IMG/VR virus record: IMGVR_UViG_3300037313_000454
Location: 33,490 to 97,489 of that record
Reading direction: 5' to 3' (one strand)
DNA from: a virus
Taxonomy: Duplodnaviria; Heunggongvirae; Uroviricota; Caudoviricetes
DNA: 64,000 bases
The translations under genes were made by a program, and so were the position numbers. The stretch's first letter is position 1. The number at the start of each line of letters is the position of its first letter. The notes beneath the pieces are model-generated. The model was given only the letters and a program-made list of their open reading frames with translations. It ran no database searches and was not told the origin of the DNA. Shown here piece by piece: positions 11,736-56,355 of this stretch.

Positions 11736-12616
11736 TTAATACCTGTCTTGTTCATAACAGCACGAAGCTGCTTTAGTTCTTCGTCATTCCAGCCGTTTAG
11801 ATGAACCTGCGGCATAACCGACAGGAAGTAGCAGCGCAGAGCTTCTACCTCACTGGCACTGAGCGAAACCGCTTTAAGAACGTGTTCATCAAACGCCGCC
11901 CAAGCCCACGGGAAGGCTTCCTGAACCACCTGAGCAAGAGCATTGGCATACTGTCGAATCTCCCACTGAGCGTGAGAGTCCATACGCAGCCTGAGGAAGT
12001 GCAAGAGGTTGTGTAGGTCGCATTGCCAAACCCACTTGGTATAAATACTGAGGGGTAAATCAATACGCGCCGTTTCTTTAGCGATTCCAGATTCCAGCAT
12101 GGATTCATAGTCAGCATAGACTTTCTTTACATTCTCCTCATGCAGATACAGGAACGTCTCCCGCGCTTCAGCGGGTAGCTCACCTTCTGAACCCTGCTTA
12201 TTAGTCTTCCCCTGCCCCATAATCCGTTCAGCAGTGGGGGTATAGACTTCGAACGGTAGCTGCGTGTAGCGGCCTGACATCTCGTTGAGACGGGCGGTAC
12301 GATGACGCACCCATTCCCGAGCCACGAAAATAGGCATCTTACACTCGAAGGTAAGAACGCACTGCTCGAACGGTGAGGTATGCTTGTTACGGAGCAGGTA
12401 GTTAATCAGCCCCTTATCCTTGTCCTCACCCTTGCTACCCTGATTGTAGGACACACGGGCCGCGTTAGCGATACTGGTGTCAGTACCTAAGTAGTCTACT
12501 AGAGTTACGTAGCCCCCATTCAGAACTGAAATCTGATGGTAAAGCCACTTCTCTGCGCCCGGATTGACGGGACGCTTCGTAATCCCCGCATCCACTGAGG
12601 GGCTTGCCGTAAGCAT
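11729..12616 (-). CDS. thyX: flavin-dependent thymidylate synthase ThyX
   Basis: ThyX signature RHRTARLNEMSGRY (RHRx7S) and overall ThyX architecture. Confidence 0.85.
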   Translation of the reverse strand: MLTASPSVDAGITKRPVNPGAEKWLYHQISVLNGGYVTLVDYLGTDTSIANAARVSYNQGSKGEDKDKGLINYLLRNKHTSPFEQCVLTFECKMPIFVAREWVRHRTARLNEMSGRYTQLPFEVYTPTAERIMGQGKTNKQGSEGELPAEARETFLYLHEENVKKVYADYESMLESGIAKETARIDLPLSIYTKWVWQCDLHNLLHFLRLRMDSHAQWEIRQYANALAQVVQEAFPWAWAAFDEHVLKAVSLSASEVEALRCYFLSVMPQVHLNGWNDEELKQLRAVMNKTGIKV

Positions 12617-31548: not shown

Positions 31549-31634
31549 TGGTGGTCAATGTAGGAATCGAACCTACACGTCCGAAGACACTAGCTCCTAA
31601 GGCTAGCGCGTCTGCCAATTCCGCCAATTGACCG
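31549..31634 (-). tRNA. tRNA-Leu (anticodon UAG), type II with long variable arm, CCA encoded
   Basis: Minus-strand GGTCAATTGGCGGAATTGGCAGACGCG-CTAGC-CTTAGGA-GCTAG-TGTCTTCGGACGTG-GTAGGTTCGATTCCTAC-ATTGACC-A-CCA. Acceptor stem is a perfect 7 bp. D-arm closely matches E. coli tRNA-Leu. Anticodon loop is C-U-UAG-G-A. Confidence 0.8.
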
Positions 31635-39439: not shown

Positions 39440-39990
39440 TTAATTTTTCCTACGCGGGGACTTTTCTGCACATTGTGCAGTCTTACCATCGAGTTTACGT
39501 ATGATTCGACGCACTTCGTTTCTGAATAAGTGCATGTCACCATCTTTACCGCCGAATCGCCAGAACGTCTTTGTGATTGCGTCTACTGCTTCAGAAGCGC
39601 TCATACAAATCCTTAAAAAATAGGTGGGATAGCCTCATCATCGCCGCTGCGTATTCGCCGGGAACTGGACAGGTTCTTTTAGAAGCTTCCGGTTACTGAG
39701 GCAACTCGATTCTGCTGGACTTATTGCCATTGCCAGACAATCAGCTAGATGAACGATTTGACACTGTCCATGCTTCTCGTAACTAGCTACCCCACCATCT
39801 AGGGTAAAAACTCTTTATACTTCTTCTCTACAAGCCGCTTGGAAGTAGCTTATAAAGTACCAGAGAACTTGTTTAGCAATAAATCGACATTGACTACAAT
39901 CTTTGAATTTTTCAGGCCGAATAGGACAAGCCTTATTGCAGTCATGGATTATGATTGTTAGCCTATCTAGAATTTTATCTTTCATAAACT

Positions 39991-40370
39991 TTGGGGTGAC
40001 AGACGGGGCTTGAACCCGTAACCATCTGTGTCACTTTGTTGTGCACACTGTGCGGGGGTATTGTCCGCCCAGTCTGAATAACAAATGGTAAGGACTTACG
40101 TATTGCCTTACCGCAGTGCTTTACCTCGACTCGCCATAGTAGTAGACGGAATTCTAGCTGGCCAATGCTGCATCACCGGACGCTAACAGTGAACTTCAGG
40201 GAGTGGTTTGAATCTGTTTGCCAAACAATGGGCCGCGTCCTTGACCTACTACTAACTAGTGTCACGGGGCCTTGCACCCCCGCCGACTGCATTTTCAAAG
40301 GTCTTCGCCAGTATACACCTAATTACGCGGTAATGCACCACTCGATGTAAACTGATTAAGCTACTGTCAC
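39991..40370 (-). ncRNA. tRNA-like-bracketed structured RNA (Y-RNA-like family), about 380 nt, CCA encoded
   Basis: 5' GTGACAG at 40364-40370 pairs perfectly with the 3' CTGTCAC that follows T-arm ACGGG-TTCAAGC-CCCGT. Discriminator C and CCA are at 39991-39993, followed by AAGTTTATG. Confidence 0.45.
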
Positions 40371-40378
40371 CATAAACT

Positions 40379-40628
40379 TGGTGTAGGCAGTGGGACTCGA
40401 ACCCACTTACTGCTTTAATCCGCGCTGTTCTATAGAGACTTATTCTAATGCCCATAGGGACTCACATAGTTACGTCTCTATCTACGCATGGCGGGGACGT
40501 TACAACCACGAACTACTCCGAAGAACAGGCTCGAAAGCGTGACTTCAAGGACGAGAGGCCGAAGCGTCTCTAATAGTGCGTGTTTTGTCGTTGTAACCAC
40601 AGTGTTTTAACCTAATAAACTATGCCCA
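40379..40628 (-). ncRNA. tRNA-like-bracketed structured RNA (Y-RNA-like family), about 250 nt, CCA encoded
   Basis: 5' GTGGGCA-TA-GTTT-ATTAGGTTA-AAAC has a D-arm-like start. The 3' end is GTGGG-TTCGAGT-CCCAC-TGCCTAC-A-CCA. The acceptor pairs 7/7 with one G-U. A UUCG-capped hairpin is inside. Followed by AGTTTATG. Confidence 0.45.
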
Positions 40629-40636
40629 CATTTTGG

Positions 40637-41092
40637 CTACGTGTAGGATTCGTTGACAAGCTCTCTACACTGCTCTAACAAAAACTCTTTTTCTTCCTTT
40701 TCCGTCTCGAACGCTTCTGTCATGTTATAGGCGTGTTCGTTTTCGCCAGTGCGTTCACGGGTAAGGTGGCTGTCGTCGCCCAGTGCCACGTCAAAGGCAT
40801 CGTCAGGGGCGGGTTCGGTATTGACACGGCGCATTTGCCGTTCTATCGCTTTGTTCTTCGTAAAATGAGTGCTGATGAGGTCGCCGGATGGAGTGTATTC
40901 ATCGTAGCGGCGAAGTGGAAGGACATCCCCTTTAATTTCAAGGCAGGGGACACATTGCTCGGCGCGGGGATTCGCTTTCAGACGTTTATCTGACAGCGGT
41001 TCCCCGCACTCAGAGCATGACCGACCTGTTCCAACCATACTCCCGTTGGAATCTAGGGCGTTGCTTACTACTGCTAACGATGGTGAGGCCAT
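40637..41092 (-). CDS. DksA/TraR-family C4 zinc-finger protein
   Basis: CSECGEPLSDKRLKANPRAEQCVPC fits C-x2-C-x17-C-x2-C. Confidence 0.6.
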   Translation of the reverse strand: MASPSLAVVSNALDSNGSMVGTGRSCSECGEPLSDKRLKANPRAEQCVPCLEIKGDVLPLRRYDEYTPSGDLISTHFTKNKAIERQMRRVNTEPAPDDAFDVALGDDSHLTRERTGENEHAYNMTEAFETEKEEKEFLLEQCRELVNESYT

Positions 41093-41326: not shown

Positions 41327-41355
41327 ACTATATCACAAATTTAGTTGTTTGTCAA
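41327..41355 (-). promoter_or_regulatory. sigma70-type promoter, TTGACA-17-TGaTATAGT (minus strand)
   Basis: Reverse complement of 41350-41355 is TTGACA and of 41327-41332 is TATAGT. Long leader of about 230 nt carrying a small uORF. Confidence 0.55.
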
Positions 41356-50974: not shown

Positions 50975-50983
50975 AAAGTTATT

Positions 50984-51234
50984 GGGGTGACCGACGGGAA
51001 TTGAACCCGCGTAACGTCGGTAATAAGTAGCTTCCCTGTAATCAGGGACGAAAAGCTGTTTACGGAATGAGCCGGATTAGCACTTGGACATTGTCACAGG
51101 CGTTCACCATGAATCTTGAGCGGTTACTAGCTTTCGGAACTAGTCACTCGGCATTACGGTCTGACCGCATAACTTACTTCTTTTCAACTACTTATGACCG
51201 ATATGTTGTCTTCACCGTTTAAACGACGGTCACC
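50984..51234 (-). ncRNA. tRNA-like-bracketed structured RNA (Y-RNA-like family), about 250 nt, CCA encoded
   Basis: 5' G-GTGACCG at 51227-51234 pairs with the 3' CGGTCAC that follows T-arm GCGGG-TTCAATT-CCCGT. Discriminator C and CCA are at 50984-50986. An extra 5' G faces C73. Confidence 0.45.
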
Positions 51235-51694: not shown

Positions 51695-51901
51695 TTAACC
51701 GGGGTAGACGCAATTTATCGCCACAGTGTGTAAGACATCTTTGCCAAAATACTCGTCTTGGCGTGTGACTTCGACTTCGATGCAGTCAACCTTTGTTAGA
51801 ATCTCTTCAACAAGAGCCATTAGCTGTTTTTTAGCCGCTTCATGCTGTTGCTTTCTGCGTTCATCGTCACCGCCGCAGAAGTCATAACTGTCATAAGTCA
51901 T
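51695..51901 (-). CDS. hypothetical protein
   Basis: 68-aa ORF. Confidence 0.35.
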   Translation of the reverse strand: MTYDSYDFCGGDDERRKQQHEAAKKQLMALVEEILTKVDCIEVEVTRQDEYFGKDVLHTVAINCVYPG

Positions 51902-52791
51902 GCGTAGAACTCCAAGTGTACGTCCGCTATCAGCTTCGATATAGCGGCACGGTCTACTTTTTCAGGTAGGGAAGATTTGTCACGGGCTTTCTCAGCCTCA
52001 GCGCGGATTTGCTCACCCATTTCCTGTAGCTCGGTCAGCTTGTACTTACCGCGCCGAATATCTTTTAACACTTCGACTTCAGGCCGGGGATAGGTGATTC
52101 GTCCATCTTCCATCAACTCTTTCGCCTCAGACAGCAGCCGGATGATGTGCATGGCATACTTGGTATCGTAGCCATACAAATCAACGAGCTTATCGCGGTT
52201 GATATTCTTCTGTCCCCTGAGTCCCATGAGGCGTTCCATCTGGTCTTGGGCGTAATAGATGAACGGCCAGTAATGGGACTTGGCAAGGAAAATCAATGTA
52301 TTGTCGAGAATACGTTGCCATGGTTCCAGTACAAGTTTTTCTTCGCCGTCACCGTCACATACAGTACAAGGTTCAACATCATAGGATGTTTCGCCAGCAC
52401 CGTAACAACGGTAGCAAATATCGTTATGCTCTTTTGTGTACTGGAACTCTAAGGTGGAAAACAGGAAGCTGAGGACGGTGGGATTGCCCTTAGCCACCAT
52501 ACCAGCCCACTTCTGCAAACTGTGCAGGGCAATGTCTACTTCGCCCGGTTCGCGTTCACCACGACTACGTTTGGTAGTGTCGCCGGGATAGACGAAATGC
52601 TCGAACGCGTCGATGCCCAGCGTCTTCTCTTTGGGTGGGATGAAGATACCGTAGTAATCGGTGTCGCTCTGACCGCCACAATCATCAGCCCGTGCCCCAT
52701 GTTGCGTGGAGCCGCCGATAAAGGCCATGATGAGATTGTCAGGGTAAGGAAAGCCGTGTTTGGCTAGGATTTCTTGAATGGACATATTCAC
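51898..52791 (-). CDS. Pol-beta-superfamily nucleotidyltransferase
   Basis: GGSTQHGARADDCGGQSDTDYYGIF is the hG[GS]...D.D nucleotidyltransferase signature. C-terminal Cys cluster. Confidence 0.5.
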   Translation of the reverse strand: MNMSIQEILAKHGFPYPDNLIMAFIGGSTQHGARADDCGGQSDTDYYGIFIPPKEKTLGIDAFEHFVYPGDTTKRSRGEREPGEVDIALHSLQKWAGMVAKGNPTVLSFLFSTLEFQYTKEHNDICYRCYGAGETSYDVEPCTVCDGDGEEKLVLEPWQRILDNTLIFLAKSHYWPFIYYAQDQMERLMGLRGQKNINRDKLVDLYGYDTKYAMHIIRLLSEAKELMEDGRITYPRPEVEVLKDIRRGKYKLTELQEMGEQIRAEAEKARDKSSLPEKVDRAAISKLIADVHLEFYA

Positions 52792-53651: not shown

Positions 53652-54553
53652 AGAACTCCTGTTAGCTCTACTTTACAGCTTATGGGATTATTGCCGACGG
53701 GAACAGGCGAAAACGGATATTTTCGTGTGCTACCGTTACACTAACGCCCTACCGATTAGGCAGGACGTATGGGAGTCGAACCCATACCACGTCATCCAGA
53801 GTGAAGTAACCGTTCTCTTCACCACGTCAGCAAACTTTAAGGGCGGGAACAGGCGACAAGGCTCTTTTTGCCGATTGCTCTACCAGACTGAGCTATCTCC
53901 CTCACATTCTTAGGGAGAGTGGGATTCGAACCCACGACCCATCGTTCCGATTGAAGTATTCCTTATCTACACCACGCCCAAACTTTAAGTGAAGGGAACA
54001 TTTGGTAACAGGTATGCCGTGTCCTTTGGCGATTCTTTACCCCTTGCGGGGCGGGGACGGACTCATACCCTTCGCATGTAAGAAGTAACTGTTACACATC
54101 ACCACTTCACAAACTTATGCGTGACCCCGTTATTCAGGCAATCAAAGCCCGATTAAAATGCCAGCACCAAGCCTTTCGACAAGGGGGAGGCCAACATGCG
54201 TTATGGGTTCTAGGGACGATTACTCTCCATACATCGTCACCAAAGGTCACGCTTGGCAGGGCAAGTCATAAGCTTCCTATCCCTGCAAACTTAGCTTAGG
54301 AGAACAAGCGACACGGCACGTTTATTCACCAATTGAAGAAGTATCCGTATCTTTCACTACCTAAGCAGAATTTACTCGGGGCACTCGGATTCAGTTGAGT
54401 CTGAGCTAGGTGAGGTTACGGATTAGCCTAGCTTTTGTAGCTCTTGCACCACCGTAACGATACGGCAAGAGACGTACTTACAGAGTAACTGTCGTCTCGA
54501 ACGCTTTTACACTAGCCCCGAACTTTGAAGTCCCGCAGTGTATCCAGTTGCGC
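53652..54553 (-). ncRNA. tandem array of Y-RNA-like tRNA-mimic modules (at least 4 units)
   Basis: 900-nt ORF-free region. Units are delimited by (T)TAAAGTTTG at about 53831, 53979, 54110 and 54286. Two units carry T-arm (GTGGG-TTCGAAT-CCCAC; ATGGG-TTCGACT-CCCAT) plus 3' acceptor strand, then 8-10 nt, then the complementary 5' acceptor strand plus D-arm (AGGGAGA-TA-GCTC-AGTCTGGTA-GAGC; AGGGCGT-TA-GTGT-AACGGTA-GCAC). Unit ends pair with each other. Confidence 0.5.
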
Positions 54554-54999: not shown

Positions 55000-56355
55000 T
55001 TAATCTTCGTTCTCAGTGGCCAGAATGAAGTCTACCACAGCTTCAGACCATCCGTCCACATGCTTCCATTTGCCGTAACCGACGCCATTCTGATAGGCAG
55101 CCACGTTGATAACGTAGCCCTTGTCGGTCAACGGGTTGGACAACGCCTGATGCGACTGCTCATCCGTGAGGATGATAAGGCGGTCATAGCCTTCCTTGTC
55201 CGCAACCAGCTTGGCGCGTTCGGTATACGTACCACCACCGAACTGACGCATGATAGCGTCACGCAAGGCAAATCCACGCCGTGCCGGAACCAGCTTGGCA
55301 TCGTTGGCGAACGTGTACACAACCACGCTCTCGCAAATCTCTCGGAGCAGGATAGCCAATCCGTTCGCAGCGTCGATACGGCTCAACTCCGACTTACTGG
55401 AGATAGCCGAAGTCATCGAACCCGATACGTCAATGAGCAGCACCGTCTTGCCCTTGAGTTTAGGGGCATCGGCCACACACTTGAACATGGCCTCTTCCAA
55501 GTACGGCTCAAACTTGGGTGCATACTTTGCAGCCGAGATGAACCGGAACGGCAACACACGCTCGGTGTTCATGGACTGCAAGCCATCGACAATGACGCGC
55601 TCCTCAACGCCCGACTGAATCATGTTCCGCAGGTTACGGAGCATGGCCAGCGCACCCAGCTTCTTCTCTTGGATGAGGCGAGTGAACGTAGCAGCTTTGT
55701 CTGCACCAGCGGACAGGGCGACTTCCCATGTATCCGGCGACGTAAGTGTGTTCTCGGCCAACATCTTGTACGTCTCGATGCATGGCGCGGTATCTCCGAC
55801 TTCCGGCCCCCAACCCGGAGTACGCTTTTCTTTGCGCGGGTCAGGATGCGTCAAGAACATAACGTCCCGCAGCTTCACAGCCCCATCACGGTTGTACTTG
55901 GCAAGGCTGTAGCGGTTGAACTTGTAGAACGCCCGTGCCAAGCCCTTCTTCACCTGTGCCGAAAGAGGCTGACGGCCATCCTTCCAATAGATGGCAAGGA
56001 ACTCGGTCAGTTCATCGGGACGCTGAATGATGCGCTCCAACGTGTCTGCTACCAACAGACGGGCTTCTTTGCTCCCCCGCGCCAATTCACGGGCAAGGAA
56101 CAGCGGTACGTGACGCAGCTTGAACTTCTCACGCGCCTCTACCGCGACATTAGCCACATCTTGGGGCTTGTTGTTCTTGATAGCCTCAGCCAGCACTTGG
56201 GCGTGGCTTTGGCCGTCGATGTAGAAGCTGTCTTCCCACAGAAGGCAGCACATCACCAACCGACGAAGCTGTTGGAGCGGGTTGATTCGCTTGGCCACCG
56301 CACCCTCATAGGTGCGCGGAGCAGCCGTAGCGATACGTTTATTCAGGGTCGCCAT
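55000..56355 (-). CDS. rsr: Ro60/Rsr ortholog (TROVE domain + von Willebrand A domain)
   Basis: TROVE-like blocks LRRLVMCCLLWEDSFY, PLFLARELA and MLRNLRNMIQSGV. vWA MIDAS motif LLIDVSGSM. 451 aa. Encoded just upstream of the tRNA-mimic RNA array. Confidence 0.7.
   Translation of the reverse strand: MATLNKRIATAAPRTYEGAVAKRINPLQQLRRLVMCCLLWEDSFYIDGQSHAQVLAEAIKNNKPQDVANVAVEAREKFKLRHVPLFLARELARGSKEARLLVADTLERIIQRPDELTEFLAIYWKDGRQPLSAQVKKGLARAFYKFNRYSLAKYNRDGAVKLRDVMFLTHPDPRKEKRTPGWGPEVGDTAPCIETYKMLAENTLTSPDTWEVALSAGADKAATFTRLIQEKKLGALAMLRNLRNMIQSGVEERVIVDGLQSMNTERVLPFRFISAAKYAPKFEPYLEEAMFKCVADAPKLKGKTVLLIDVSGSMTSAISSKSELSRIDAANGLAILLREICESVVVYTFANDAKLVPARRGFALRDAIMRQFGGGTYTERAKLVADKEGYDRLIILTDEQSHQALSNPLTDKGYVINVAAYQNGVGYGKWKHVDGWSEAVVDFILATENED

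What the first reader, a model, noticed from the sequence alone, without database searches (positions are those of the whole stretch)
39991..40628. Two consecutive long RNAs bracketed by tRNA acceptor stem + T-arm + CCA
On the minus strand an ORF-free stretch holds two elements. One (40379-40628, about 250 nt) starts GTGGGCA-TA-GTTT-ATTAGGTTA-AAAC, an acceptor plus D-arm-like start, and ends GTGGG-TTCGAGT-CCCAC-TGCCTAC-A-CCA. The other (39991-40370, about 380 nt) starts GTGACAG and ends ACGGG-TTCAAGC-CCCGT-CTGTCAC-C-CCA. In both, the 5' 7-mer pairs 7/7 with the 3' strand across 250-380 nt, and CCA is encoded. The inserts contain a UUCG tetraloop hairpin and a copy of the TGCACACTGTGCG palindrome. 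Each 3' CCA is followed by A(A)GTTTATG. This looks like a tRNA carrying a huge insertion, or a tmRNA/Y-RNA-like topology. I could not fit a canonical anticodon arm.
Basis: seen in the sequence. Interest (0 to 1): 0.65.

Follow-up and report, generated by a model that had tools for sequence, protein, structure and literature searches.

The report
Long tRNA-framed RNAs in a phage
An uncultured phage carries RNA genes of 250-380 nt (two flagged, a third found here) that have the ends, D arm and T arm of a tRNA but a large conserved folded domain where the anticodon should be; they belong to a conserved tRNA-mimic family that matches no family in Rfam and whose function is unknown.

Summary
E1 is 40629->40379 (251 nt) and E2 is 40370->39992 (379 nt), both on the minus strand. 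Each has a 7-bp acceptor stem, U8, a D stem, a T arm, a discriminator base and an encoded CCA. Orthologues sit at the same place, after a DksA/TraR zinc-finger gene, in at least nine related uncultured phage genomes. Covariation is strong: 16 of 33 pairs (E1) and 12 of 26 pairs (E2) show compensatory changes, and 0 of 500 shuffles reach this. A third paralogue, E3, lies at 51233->50983.

These are not intron-containing tRNAs, because the "anticodon" differs in every orthologue and lies inside a covarying helix. They are not tmRNAs: there is no tag reading frame and no model hit. They are not Y RNAs either. Real YrlA-like Y RNAs lie next to a phage Ro60/Rsr gene in the same window, and their hallmark motifs are absent from the E RNAs.

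The acceptor ends carry G-1:C73 (tRNA-His identity) or G3·U70 plus A73 (tRNA-Ala identity). The three positions switch together. All three types share a GURAGUY motif.

Best reading: a new family of tRNA-mimic stable RNAs, processed like tRNA and plausibly aminoacylated. Function is unknown.

The parts
40379..40629 (-). E1, a 251-nt tRNA-framed RNA with Ala-type ends (G3.U70, A73, CCA encoded).
   Evidence: Sequence. Nine distinct orthologues were aligned (A2/A3). 98.3% of cells are paired and 16 of 33 pairs are compensatory.
40604..40629 (-). E1 5' frame: acceptor 5' strand GUGGGCA (40629-40623), U8 A9, and the D arm GUUU-AUUAGGUUA-AAAC (40620-40604) with G18G19.
   Evidence: Acceptor and D-stem pairs are 100% kept.
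40499..40602 (-). E1 anticodon-side stem 5' strand CUGU (40602-40599). It is followed by arm A: helix Pa GUUACAAC/GUUGUAAC (40597-40590 with 40506-40499) enclosing an 83-nt variable insert that contains the UUCG hairpin.
   Evidence: In Pa, 6 of 7 pairs show compensatory changes. The insert is 82-139 nt long and unalignable between orthologues.
40414..40498 (-). E1 arm B, the conserved domain. It is a long irregular hairpin ending in UAUGUGAGUC (40468-40459) plus the mini-hairpin CCC-UAU-GGG.
   Evidence: Same architecture in all 9 orthologues. The middle pair of the mini-hairpin is C-G, G-C, A-U or U-A in different orthologues. GTGA.TC is invariant.
40379..40413 (-). E1 3' frame: stem 3' strand GCAG (40413-40410), 3-nt variable loop, T arm GUGGG-UUCGAGU-CCCAC (40406-40390), acceptor 3' strand UGCCUAC (40389-40383), A73 (40382) and CCA (40381-40379).
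   Evidence: The 4-bp stem covaries C-G/U-A and U-A/A-U.
39992..40371 (-). E2, a 379-nt tRNA-framed RNA with His-type ends: G-1 (40371) opposite C73 (39995), CCA at 39994-39992.
   Evidence: Sequence. Six distinct orthologues (A4/A5). 98.7% of cells paired and 12 of 26 pairs compensatory.
40118..40361 (-). E2 D arm: stem GCUU (40361-40358) paired with AAGC (40121-40118). The D loop carries a ~230-nt insertion placed before G18G19-U-A.
   Evidence: The D stem covaries: ACUU/AAGU in L136 and GCUU/AAGU in L005. In orthologues the D-loop insert is only a 10-40-nt hairpin.
40087..40116 (-). E2 anticodon-side stem 5' strand (CUG, 40116-40114) and hairpin H1 (40112-40087) with the conserved 12-nt loop CAAUACGUAAGU.
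   Evidence: In H1, 5 of 6 pairs are compensatory. Loop bases are invariant or nearly so.
39992..40086 (-). E2 arm H2 (holds the palindrome CGCACAGUGUGCA at 40054-40042), stem 3' strand CACAG (40030-40026), variable loop, T arm (40019-40003) and acceptor 3' strand (40002-39996).
50983..51233 (-). E3, a third paralogue of 251 nt: G-1 GUGACCG-UC-GUUU-AAACGGUGA-AGAC ... GCGGG-UUCAAUU-CCCGU-CGGUCAC-C-CCA. It contains GAAGUAAGUUAUG.
   Evidence: Orthologues: L140 16291-16521, L141 9992-10222 and L009 ~1124-1405.
40637..41092 (-). DksA/TraR-type zinc-finger gene. Its stop codon ends 7 nt before E1. It is the conserved upstream neighbour.
   Evidence: Pfam PF01258, E = 2.4e-9. Synteny holds in all E1-bearing loci.
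41327..41355 (-). Sigma-70-like promoter TTGACA-17-TATAGT (11 of 12 matches, TG extension). It probably drives the zinc-finger gene plus E1 and E2.
   Evidence: This is a consensus match only. No terminator-like site lies between it and E2.

Best explanation
E1 and E2, together with E3 found here, belong to a conserved family of phage-encoded, non-decoding tRNA mimics that matches no family in Rfam.

**Anatomy.** Each RNA keeps a complete tRNA body: a 7-bp acceptor stem, U8, a D stem with G18G19, a T arm with UUCRA, a discriminator base and an encoded CCA. The anticodon stem-loop is replaced by a short 4-5-bp stem. That stem opens into a multi-helix domain of 130-300 nt. In E2 the D loop also carries an extra helix or domain.

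**Shown here.** The frame and the main helices of the inserted domain are maintained by compensatory evolution. No conserved anticodon exists. The three paralogue types share a GURAGUY motif.

**Inferred.**
- The RNAs are co-transcribed with the upstream zinc-finger gene.
- They are cut out by the host tRNA machinery: RNase P at the 5' end, and endo- and exonucleases at the A/U-rich trailer after CCA.
- They fold into an L shape.
- Their acceptor ends make them substrates for HisRS (G-1:C73 in all E2, all E3 and the deeper-branching E1) or for AlaRS (G3.U70 plus A73 in one E1 subclade). These two synthetases rely mainly on the acceptor end rather than the anticodon (AlaRS does not use it at all).
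- The inserted domain is the effector part and binds an unknown partner.

**Most likely role (weakest step).** A stable tRNA-mimic adapter or decoy in the RNA-damage and repair conflict. These phages invest heavily in that conflict, with Ro60/Rsr plus a Y-RNA cluster, RlaP, and Pnkp plus Rnl1 in relatives.

**My confidence in each step.** Structured tRNA-framed ncRNA family, about 0.9. tRNA-like processing, about 0.7. Aminoacylation, about 0.45. The decoy or adapter role, about 0.2.
For: **The frame is real and conserved.**
- E1: 9 distinct orthologues, 98.3% of cells paired, 16 of 33 pairs with changes on both sides, 0 of 500 shuffles as high, slid controls at most 6 pairs.
- E2: 6 orthologues, 98.7% paired, 12 of 26 pairs compensatory, 0 of 500 shuffles.
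- Synteny after the DksA-type zinc-finger gene holds in every locus. Gene callers left the stretch empty.

**The frame is tRNA-like.**
- ARAGORN with the intron option accepts 7 of 10 E1 loci as tRNA bodies.
- U8, A14, GG in the D loop and UUCRA in the T loop are all present.

**There is no conserved anticodon.**
- The triplet ARAGORN picks is tac, gtg, gta, gca, aac or agg depending on the orthologue, and it lies in helix Pa.

**Identity sets.**
- Ala-type E1 (window, L132, L005, L007, L009): position -1 is T or C, with G3.U70 and A73.
- His-type E1 (L004, L129, L135, L136): G-1, G3-C70 and C73.
- All E2 and all E3: G-1 and C73.
- The three positions change together while neighbouring acceptor pairs covary freely.
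- A canonical phage tRNA-His (anticodon GTG, G-1, C73) sits in a relative (L140 11549-11626). The frames are on average slightly closer to it than to other phage tRNAs.

**Shared motif.**
- GU[AG]A[GA]U[CU] occurs at one conserved position in each of 18 E RNAs; 3 also have a second, non-conserved match. About 0.09 matches per RNA are expected by chance.

**RNA-conflict context.**
- In the window: TROVE/Ro60 at 55000-56355, RlaP at 51898-52791, and YrlA-like RNAs at 53979-53694.
- Rsr is on the same 84-kb contig as the L004 element.
- Pnkp plus Rnl1 are present in relatives.

**Precedent.**
- M. smegmatis YrlA is cut by RNase P and receives CCA. Its authors raised the possibility of aminoacylation (PMC4201824).
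Against: - No expression, end-mapping or charging data exist. Every sequence is a metagenome assembly, and no cultured relative is known (ATP-grasp identity at most 29% in INPHARED).
- Single-sequence folding energy is not better than shuffles (z = -0.45).
- The His-to-Ala switch in E1 may be one evolutionary event, plus one E1/E2 fusion in L004. The 'perfect correlation' therefore rests on few independent events.
- G-1:C73 could be kept for RNase P site choice or for 8-bp stem stability rather than for HisRS.
- The Ala-type acceptor has U2-A71, not the G2-C71 of tRNA-Ala and tmRNA.
- E1 and E3 have a 3-nt variable loop and only a 4-bp anticodon-side stem. The elbow geometry may therefore differ from a real tRNA.
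- Nothing links the RNAs physically or genetically to Rsr or the repair enzymes beyond co-occurrence. Co-occurrence is documented for only two genomes.
Confidence: 0.55

Rival explanations
1. Intron-containing tRNA genes. The insert would be a self-splicing (group I) or enzyme-removed intron, and the mature product a decoding tRNA-Ala or tRNA-His.
For: The tRNA frame is complete, and ARAGORN in intron mode calls most E1 loci. Relatives encode Pnkp and Rnl1, which could seal tRNA halves. A homing-type HNH gene lies between E1 and E2 in L009/L010.
Against: - The putative anticodon differs in every orthologue (Val, His, Tyr, Cys, Val, Pro). It disagrees with the acceptor identity and lies in covarying helix Pa.
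- No group I or other ribozyme family appears at E<=10 in the window stretch or E<=1 in six relatives.
- The anticodon-side stem has only 4 bp, and no conserved loop residues (such as U33 or R37) flank it.
- In E2 the largest insert is in the D loop.
- The most conserved part of the RNA is inside the 'intron' (arm B, the H1 loop). That is the opposite of what exon/intron constraints predict.
- The HNH gene lies between the elements, not within one.
Confidence: 0.04
2. tmRNA-like ribosome-rescue or translation-modulating RNAs. The charged tRNA-like domain would enter stalled ribosomes, and the conserved loop (sense triplet followed by UGA or UAA) would serve as a minimal message.
For: - Length of 250-380 nt, an open acceptor with CCA, and a weak tmRNA model hit on the T arm and acceptor.
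- E1 of the window has G3.U70 and A73, as tmRNA does.
- The motif reads NUG/ACG-UGA in E1 and NNN-UAA in E2.
Against: - ARAGORN tmRNA mode finds nothing in the window or in 9 of 10 loci, even at a relaxed threshold.
- The Rfam score is 14.8-17.3 bits against a gathering score of 47, covering only the frame.
- A well-formed D stem is present, whereas tmRNA has none.
- There is no tag reading frame and no pseudoknot ring.
- Most members have His-type ends, not Ala-type.
- In E3 the middle base of the motif varies (A, G, U), so a stop codon is not conserved.
Confidence: 0.07
3. Y RNAs: ligands of the phage Ro60/Rsr protein in a circularly permuted, open-acceptor form.
For: - The same genome encodes Rsr, and so does the L004 phage.
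- A crAss-like phage has a 145-nt Y RNA in which the tRNA frame has open ends and the Rsr-type motifs lie in the insert (L146 21538-21682).
- E3 lies 3.8 kb from rsr.
Against: - None of 18 E RNAs has GUUACUUC or UGUUCCC, and GGUGWAG-like matches are scattered and not positionally conserved. Together these motifs mark every Y-RNA cluster examined: the window, L140, Xanthomonas phage 10KY502B and CcrColossus show all three, and cr106_1 shows the first two.
- Rfam YrlA scores 41 bits on a true Y RNA at 53943-53873 but gives nothing on E1 or E2, even at E<=10.
- E1 and E2 are 14.4 kb from rsr and have their own conserved neighbourhood.
Confidence: 0.1
4. Pure scaffold. The tRNA frame would serve only as a processing and stability cassette for an unrelated regulatory RNA, with no aminoacylation and no tRNA-related function.
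For: tRNA frames are known to confer RNase P processing and nuclease resistance; engineered tRNA scaffolds exploit this (my own knowledge). The YrlA authors propose the same protective role (PMC4201824). T4 RNA C and RNA D are matured with the tRNA cluster and have no known role (PMC3014915; annotation).
Against: This does not explain why G-1 and C73 stay fixed in 13 His-type elements while 3-4 of the 7 acceptor pairs change. It also does not explain why positions -1, 70 and 73 switch together to the Ala set. It overlaps largely with the best explanation and differs only on charging.
Confidence: 0.2
5. Decayed tRNA pseudogenes disrupted by junk or mobile DNA, or a chance resemblance, or a missed protein-coding gene.
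For: No Rfam family matches. The folding z-score is unremarkable. Short ORFs of 40-67 aa overlap the region.
Against: - Compensatory changes are seen across 9 and 6 orthologues.
- The inserted domains and motif are conserved.
- Three intact paralogues occur per genome.
- After an E1/E2 fusion (L004), acceptor pairing was kept or restored.
- No ORF is conserved or called in any orthologous locus.
- Arm lengths differ by amounts that are not multiples of three.
Confidence: 0.02

Closest known systems
tmRNA (SsrA, Rfam RF00023)
   Same: A stable RNA of 250-400 nt whose 5' and 3' ends form a tRNA acceptor stem next to a T arm, with a CCA end. A large non-tRNA domain replaces the anticodon arm. Charging depends only on acceptor identity (G3.U70/A73, which E1 of the window also has).
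   Different: The E RNAs have no tag reading frame, no pseudoknot ring, and no model or ARAGORN hit. They have a proper D stem with G18G19. Most members carry the His set (G-1:C73) instead of the Ala set.
Bacterial and phage Y RNAs of the YrlA type (Rfam RF02553), partners of Ro60/Rsr
   Same: A non-decoding tRNA mimic with T arm, D arm and acceptor stem, found in phages that encode Rsr. M. smegmatis YrlA is even opened by RNase P and given CCA (PMC4201824). Y RNAs occur in the same genome as E1-E3.
   Different: In YrlA the ends lie in the Rsr-binding stem and the acceptor is a closed hairpin. The conserved GGUGWAG, GUUACUUC and UGUUCCC motifs are absent from the E RNAs. E RNAs are 2-3 times longer, encode CCA, and are not adjacent to rsr.
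Bacteriophage T4 RNA C and RNA D (species 1 and 2 stable RNAs)
   Same: Phage-encoded stable RNAs of unknown function that lie with the tRNA genes. RNA C ends in a T arm (CCGGG-UUCGAAU-CCCGG) followed by an acceptor-like strand. A homing endonuclease gene sits within the cluster (segB in T4; an HNH gene between E1 and E2 in L009).
   Different: The T4 RNAs are 119-139 nt long. There is no detectable sequence similarity: blastn of E1+E2 against 50,697 phage records found nothing. The RNA C acceptor is imperfect. No D arm or identity set was examined in T4.
Histidine-accepting tRNA-like structures (TLS-His) of plant RNA viruses
   Same: A viral RNA that mimics the tRNA-His acceptor end without being a decoding tRNA.
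   Different: TLS-His sits at the 3' end of a +ssRNA genome. Its acceptor is built from a pseudoknot, not from paired 5' and 3' ends. The virus type and the host kingdom both differ.
tRNA genes with group I introns (for example cyanobacterial tRNA-Leu, Azoarcus tRNA-Ile)
   Same: A complete tRNA frame interrupted on the anticodon side by 200-300 nt of structured RNA.
   Different: The E RNAs have no group I core (no Rfam hit at E<=10). They have no conserved anticodon or loop residues. In E2 there is a second insertion in the D loop.

Membership tests
Canonical tRNA (RF00005) | 7-bp acceptor stem, discriminator base and 3' CCA | tested here: met
   E1, E2 and E3 pair 7/7 with encoded CCA. Acceptor pairs are 100% kept, with 3 compensatory pairs in each alignment.
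Canonical tRNA (RF00005) | T arm (5 bp plus UUCRANY loop) and D arm with G18G19, U8 and A14 | tested here: met
   In E2 the D stem is kept (it covaries), but the D loop carries a large insert.
Canonical tRNA (RF00005) | 5-bp anticodon stem with a 7-nt loop and a conserved anticodon | tested here: not met
   ARAGORN in default mode and the Rfam tRNA model do not call these RNAs. In intron mode the anticodon differs in every orthologue. Only a 4-5-bp stem leading to a junction is present.
tRNA with group I intron (RF00028) | Group I catalytic core (P3-P8 and the P7 G-binding site) | tested here: not met
   No Intron_gpI match at E<=10 in 39800-40800 or at E<=1 in six orthologous loci.
tRNA with group I intron (RF00028) | Exons that join into a tRNA with a fixed anticodon matching its acceptor identity | tested here: not met
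   Val, His, Tyr, Cys, Val and Pro for orthologues whose acceptor ends are Ala- or His-type.
tmRNA (RF00023) | tRNA-like domain with G3.U70, A73 and a T arm, and no D stem | tested here: inconclusive
   G3.U70 and A73 are present in 5 of 9 E1 but in no E2 or E3. A D stem is present in all.
tmRNA (RF00023) | Internal tag reading frame with resume codon and stop, flanked by pseudoknots | tested here: not met
   ARAGORN tmRNA mode finds none in the window. At a relaxed threshold it makes one implausible permuted call in 10 loci. Rfam scores 14.8-17.3 bits against a gathering score of 47, on the frame only.
YrlA / bacterial Y RNA (RF02553) | Rsr-binding stem formed by the RNA ends, with conserved GGUGWAG...GUUACUUC and ...UGUUCCC | tested here: not met
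   0 of 18 E RNAs have GUUACUUC or UGUUCCC within one mismatch. The Y clusters of the window, L140, L142 and L144 have all of these motifs, and L146 has the first two. No YrlA hit on E1 or E2 at E<=10.
YrlA / bacterial Y RNA (RF02553) | Gene adjacent to rsr | tested here: not met
   E1 and E2 are 14.4 kb from rsr (55000-56355). E3 is 3.8 kb away, with other genes in between.
YrlA / bacterial Y RNA (RF02553) | Binding to Ro60/Rsr | not testable with these tools
   Needs a pull-down or gel shift with the phage Rsr.
Aminoacylatable tRNA mimic (functional class) | Identity determinants for a synthetase that reads mainly the acceptor end | tested here: met
   G-1:C73 in 13 elements. G3.U70 plus A73 with a non-G at -1 in 5 elements. 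There are no mixed combinations. Assigning these sets to HisRS and AlaRS rests on established identity rules (PMC9976931 surfaced as a review of these rules but was not opened).
Aminoacylatable tRNA mimic (functional class) | Actual charging in vivo or in vitro | not testable with these tools
   Needs charging assays.

The most novel reading that the evidence does not exclude
E1-E3 are genuinely charged with histidine or alanine during infection and use that charge. Two uses seem possible. They could enter the ribosome or bind EF-Tu as tag-less tmRNA analogues or translation modulators. Or they could act as dedicated aminoacyl donors or adapters for a non-ribosomal reaction. One candidate is the peptide-ligase operon (amidoligase, GATase, RimK-like ATP-grasp) that always lies just upstream. 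Another is the Rsr/RNA-repair machinery. Either would be the first His-accepting tRNA mimic in a DNA phage, and a second bacterial-world example, after tmRNA, of a large RNA that exploits acceptor-only identity.
Probability: 0.12. Interest if true: 0.9.

Novelty: new variant of a known kind. Interest (0 to 1): 0.68.

Why it matters
Large non-decoding tRNA mimics are rare. tmRNA and the YrlA Y RNAs are the main bacterial examples, and T4 RNA C and D still have no known role (PMC3014915).

This family adds three things:
- A 250-380-nt architecture in which an intact, CCA-ended tRNA body carries a conserved multi-helix effector domain.
- Clean acceptor-identity sets for the two synthetases that rely mainly on the acceptor end rather than the anticodon, including an apparent His-to-Ala switch.
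- Co-occurrence with a phage Ro60/Y-RNA cluster and RNA-repair enzymes.

The family gives a concrete, testable entry point into how phages use tRNA mimicry in the contest over host tRNA and RNA integrity. It is also a natural counterpart of the engineered 'tRNA scaffold'. Finally, it shows that tRNA finders and Rfam miss such genes entirely.

Tried and rejected
**Model and database searches that found nothing**
- Rfam at gathering thresholds over the whole window: only tRNA-Leu.
- Rfam at E<=10 on the region and at E<=1 on six orthologous loci: only sub-threshold tmRNA hits on the T arm and acceptor.
- ARAGORN in default and tmRNA modes: nothing.
- blastn of E1+E2 and megablast of 20 kb around them against 50,697 phage records: no match.

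**IMG/VR scans**
- E1 3' end: 0 hits.
- E1 motif GTGAGTCNCTATGNGC: 37 hits, all chance. None has a T arm and most lack the covarying pair.
- E1 5' end: 0 hits.
- E2 loop: 1 chance hit inside a coding region.
- The DksA-like protein: no relatives.
- Conclusion: the family is absent from IMG/VR.

**Wider collections**
- JGI metagenome scan with an ATP-grasp profile: 80 loci at up to 46% identity, none carrying an E element.
- GTDB genome scan with the E2 loop plus GTTAC pattern: 15 chance hits.
- Rsr-encoding reference phages (Xanthomonas 10KY502B, Microcystis Mvi-JY20, CcrColossus, RsoM2USA, crAss cr106_1): Y RNAs and tRNAs, but no E-type RNA.

**Ideas tested and dropped**
- Single-sequence folding z-scores were uninformative.
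- Searching the E RNAs for an Rsr-binding module gave nothing.
- Reading the conserved motif as 'start-stop' or as a His/Tyr anticodon mimic. The flanking bases vary (AUG, ACG, CUG, GUG, ACA), and in E3 the middle base is A, G or U.
- Pfam scans of 40 window proteins found no aminoacyl-tRNA synthetase, CCA-adding enzyme, Thg1 or TGT.
Full report
**1. The observation**

Reading 39700-40900 on the minus strand confirms both elements.

- E1 is 40629->40379 (251 nt). It reads GUGGGCA-UA-GUUU-AUUAGGUUA-AAAC ... GUGGG-UUCGAGU-CCCAC-UGCCUAC-A-CCA.
- E2 is 40370->39992 (379 nt). It reads GUGACAG-UA-GCUU ... ACGGG-UUCAAGC-CCCGU-CUGUCAC-C-CCA.
- Also present are the UUCG hairpin, one copy of the palindrome (40042-40054), and A(A)GUUUAUG after each CCA.

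ARAGORN and Rfam at curated thresholds see only one ordinary tRNA-Leu in the window, at 31549-31633. At E<=10 the region gives only a 14.8-bit tmRNA match covering the T arm and acceptor. It gives no group I intron, ribozyme or Y-RNA hit. Folding energies are no better than shuffles (z = -0.45).

**2. Context**

The window is a phage genome. It encodes a primase-helicase, a class II RNR, RecA, ThyX, a PD-(D/E)XK nuclease, and an amidoligase / GATase / RimK-like ATP-grasp cluster. It has no close relative among 50,697 deposited phages.

E1 starts 7 nt after the stop codon of a DksA/TraR-type zinc-finger gene (40637-41092). A strong sigma-70-like promoter lies upstream of that gene (41355-41327). 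No terminator-like site follows before E2. E2's CCA is followed almost at once by the ATG of a 56-aa ORF.

**3. Relatives**

The identical phage occurs in three Logan samples. I found relatives through homologues of the ATP-grasp protein and of the zinc-finger protein. I then fetched their contigs.

The gene order ATP-grasp / small ORF / zinc-finger / gap is conserved, and gene callers left the gap empty. The gaps hold clear orthologues.

- E1-type, 9 distinct sequences: window, L132, L005, L007, L009, L004, L135, L136, L129.
- E2-type, 6 distinct sequences: window, L005, L007, L009, L135, L136.

A purpose-written frame detector looked for a T arm, a 7-nt 3' strand and a fully complementary 5' strand followed by U8. 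Over 662 kb, both strands, it found only normal tRNAs, these elements and a few artefacts.

More distant phages lack them. These have ATP-grasp identity of at most 46%, or zinc-finger identity of 53%. IMG/VR and GTDB genomes also lack them.

**4. Structure of E1**

I removed the unalignable insert inside helix Pa (82-139 nt) and aligned the nine sequences (A3). RNAalifold recovers six helices:

- the acceptor stem
- the D stem
- a 4-bp anticodon-side stem
- helix Pa
- a distal mini-hairpin
- the T stem

Counting on that structure gives 98.3% of cells paired and 16 of 33 pairs with changes on both sides. No shuffle out of 500 reaches this, and slid-register controls give at most 6 pairs.

The 4-bp stem opens into a three-way junction.

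- Arm A is Pa plus the variable insert. The insert begins with an A-rich GUUAAAAC-like strand.
- Arm B is a conserved long irregular hairpin with the same layout in all nine sequences.
- Arm B ends in the invariant U-GUGA(G/A)UC, followed by a mini-hairpin. The middle pair of that hairpin is C-G, G-C, A-U or U-A in different orthologues, and in L136 its loop is UUCG.
- The variable loop is only 3 nt.

**5. Structure of E2**

The D stem GCUU/AAGC covaries (ACUU/AAGU in L136). It encloses an insertion placed before G18G19. This insertion is a 10-40-nt hairpin in relatives but about 230 nt in the window.

After N26 come these elements:

- a 4-5-bp stem: UGUG/CACA, AUCUG/CAGAU or ACUG/CAGU
- hairpin H1 of 6-7 bp with the conserved 12-nt loop CAAUAYGUAAGU
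- a conserved GUUAC
- a variable arm
- the variable loop and the T arm

On the trimmed alignment A5, 98.7% of cells pair and 12 of 26 pairs are compensatory, with 0 of 500 shuffles as high.

**6. Not a decoding tRNA**

With its intron option, ARAGORN accepts most E1 loci as tRNA bodies. The anticodon it assigns is tac, gtg, gta, gca, aac or agg in different orthologues, because the triplet lies in covarying helix Pa. There is no conserved anticodon loop. The most conserved sequence lies inside the would-be intron. E2 also has an insertion in the D loop. Together these reject the intron-tRNA reading.

**7. Acceptor identity**

- Five E1 (window, L132, L005, L007, L009) have a non-G at -1, with G3.U70 and A73.
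- Four E1 (L004, L129, L135, L136) have G-1, G3-C70 and C73.
- All E2 and all E3 have G-1 and C73.

No mixed combinations occur, although neighbouring acceptor pairs covary freely. G-1:C73 is the hallmark of bacterial tRNA-His. G3.U70 with A73 is the hallmark of tRNA-Ala and tmRNA. Both statements rest on established identity rules. HisRS and AlaRS are the two synthetases that rely mainly on the acceptor end, and AlaRS does not use the anticodon.

A canonical tRNA-His lies in the Y-RNA cluster of a relative (L140 11549-11626). The E frames are on average slightly closer to it than to other phage tRNAs.

The L004 element looks like an E1/E2 fusion. It has an E1 body with the E2-type T loop UUCAAUC and His-type end, and acceptor pairing is kept through G4.U69. 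In L009, E3 and E2 share an identical 3' end. The paralogues therefore recombine while the frame stays closed.

The caveat is that the His-to-Ala change may be a single event.

**8. A third copy and the wider RNA toolkit**

Pfam shows a Ro60/Rsr orthologue (TROVE plus vWA) at 55000-56355 and an RlaP nucleotidyltransferase at 51898-52791.

Downstream of rsr lie the following:

- Rfam YrlA scores 41 bits (below the gathering score of 69; E = 1.5e-6) at 53943-53873.
- By eye there are two YrlA-type RNAs, at 53979->53841 and 53830->53694. Each has a closed acceptor hairpin, a T arm and a D arm.
- A third Y-like RNA without a T arm lies at 54110->53989.

A T-arm scan led to E3 at 51233->50983 (251 nt, G-1/C73, CCA). 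E3 has orthologues in L140, L141 and L009.

Rsr is on the same 84-kb contig as the L004 element. Relatives encode Pnkp and T4-type Rnl1 a few kb upstream.

The E RNAs are not Y RNAs. The motifs GGUGWAG, GUUACUUC and UGUUCCC mark the Y clusters examined, including those of Xanthomonas phage 10KY502B and CcrColossus; the crAss-like phage cr106_1 shows the first two. GUUACUUC and UGUUCCC are absent from all 18 E RNAs.

**9. Shared motif**

GU[AG]A[GA]U[CU] occurs at one conserved position in each of the 18 E RNAs (three also carry a second, non-conserved match); about 0.09 matches per RNA are expected by chance. In E2 and E3 it sits at the 3' end of a hairpin loop. In E1 it sits in the distal part of arm B.

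In E3 the GUNA part can pair with UN'AC just 5' of the T stem: A-U in the window, U-A in L009, G.U in L140. In E2 the loop GUAA can pair with the conserved GUUAC. This hints at a common tertiary contact, but the data are too thin to settle it.

**10. Interpretation**

Shown:
- a conserved family of structured RNAs with three paralogous types
- built on an intact tRNA body
- without an anticodon
- with acceptor identity sets

Inferred from what is known of tRNA maturation, and from M. smegmatis YrlA being cut by RNase P and given CCA (PMC4201824):
- excision by RNase P and 3' trimming at the A/U-rich trailer
- a stable L-shaped fold
- probable charging by HisRS or AlaRS

The role is guessed from context only. 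The most likely role is a tRNA-mimic adapter or decoy in the RNA damage and repair conflict. The roles of phage Rsr, RlaP and RNA ligases in that conflict are reviewed in PMC7824862.

The closest classical analogues are tmRNA, YrlA, and the T4 RNAs C and D, whose roles are still unknown (PMC3014915). None of them passes a membership test here.

I found no description of this family in Rfam 15 or in six full-text literature searches.

**11. Verdict**

- The feature is real.
- It is a new variant of a known kind (a large tRNA mimic).
- Its function is open.
- It is directly testable with standard RNA biochemistry.

Noticed in passing
window 50983-51233 (-): A third long tRNA-framed RNA, E3 (251 nt, G-1/C73, CCA). 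It lies between small ORFs downstream of RlaP and contains GAAGUAAGUUAUG. It is conserved in L140 (16291-16521), L141 and L009 (~1124-1405).
   Followed up: partly
window 55000-56355 (-) and 53694-54110 (-): A phage Ro60/Rsr orthologue (TROVE plus vWA) is followed by a cluster of Y RNAs. Two are YrlA-type with a T arm, closed acceptor hairpin and D arm (53979->53841 and 53830->53694). One has no T arm (54110->53989). Each is separated from the next by UUAAAGUUUG. Rfam YrlA scores only 41 bits, below the gathering score of 69. More Y-like repeats may extend to about 54560.
   Followed up: partly
window 51898-52791 (-); L004-L009 and L129 upstream regions: An RNA-repair toolkit is present: RlaP in the window, and Pnkp (AAA_33 plus HAD_PNKP) with T4-type RNA ligase 1 in relatives. 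L140 also has NUDIX and NAMPT/NAPRTase between rsr and RlaP. No Rnl1 was detected in the 64-kb window itself.
   Followed up: partly
window 6314, 9089, 16420, 22809, 29958, 35031, 39467, 40042, 48891, 52514, 53245, 57745, 62048: The palindrome (C/T)GCACAGTGTGCA is strongly over-represented: 16 matches at up to 2 mismatches against 2.05 expected, with 0 of 100 shuffles reaching this. Similar copies lie near E1 in L135 and downstream of E2 in L136. It may be a phage regulatory or operator site. One copy lies inside the window-specific arm of E2.
   Followed up: partly
L146 21538-21682 (uncultured crAss-like phage cr106_1, MT774378.1): An unannotated 145-nt RNA lies just downstream of the TROVE gene. 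It has an open tRNA frame (GGAGGGA-UAGCUCAGUUGGUAGAGCA ... AUUGG-UUCAAGU-CCAAU-UCCCUCC-A). Its insert carries the Y-RNA motifs GGUGUAG and GUUACUUC. It is a Y RNA permuted relative to YrlA, with its ends in the acceptor stem.
   Followed up: partly
L110 229-383: In a distant phage (ATP-grasp 33% identical), a ~152-nt tRNA-framed element lies directly after a normal tRNA. It reads GCUGUGU-UA-ACAU-GAGUGGGAG-AUGU ... GGGGG-UUCGAUU-CCCCC-ACACAGC-A, with no encoded CCA. It carries an ~80-nt insert on the anticodon side. Its sequence type differs from E1-E3.
   Followed up: no
L004 11657-11946; L009 1376-1405 compared with 12568-12597: There are signs of recombination among the paralogues. L004 has a single element with an E1 body but an E2-type T loop and His-type end. 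In L009, E3 and E2 share an identical T arm and 3' acceptor strand, which leaves a G.A mismatch in the E3 acceptor.
   Followed up: partly
L009 ~11985-12390 and L010 2037-2555: An HNH_3 homing-type endonuclease gene is inserted between E1 and E2. This is reminiscent of segB inside the T4 tRNA cluster. It was called as a gene in L010 but left uncalled in L009.
   Followed up: no
L006 12065-12350 compared with L005 12051-12264: E2 of L006 carries a 72-nt tandem duplication spanning part of the D-loop insert through hairpin H1. This is either a real variant or an assembly artefact.
   Followed up: no
L140 11549-11626 and 11849-11925: Canonical tRNA-His (GTG, with G-1 and C73) and tRNA-Cys genes are embedded within the Y-RNA cluster downstream of rsr.
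   Followed up: partly
window 51175-51181 compared with 54079-54073 and 53806-53800: E3's GAAGUAA is perfectly complementary to UUACUUC, which lies within the GUUACUUC motif conserved in two of the three Y RNAs of the same genome (Y2 and the T-arm-less Y RNA). In L140, 6 nt of this complementarity are kept. It could be chance, at about 1-2% per RNA.
   Followed up: no
L139 2554-2672 (-) (T4 rnaD): T4 RNA D (species 2) contains GGUAAGUCG, which matches the family motif GURAGUY, and ends in an encoded CCA. A single 7-mer match like this is expected by chance about 6% of the time.
   Followed up: no
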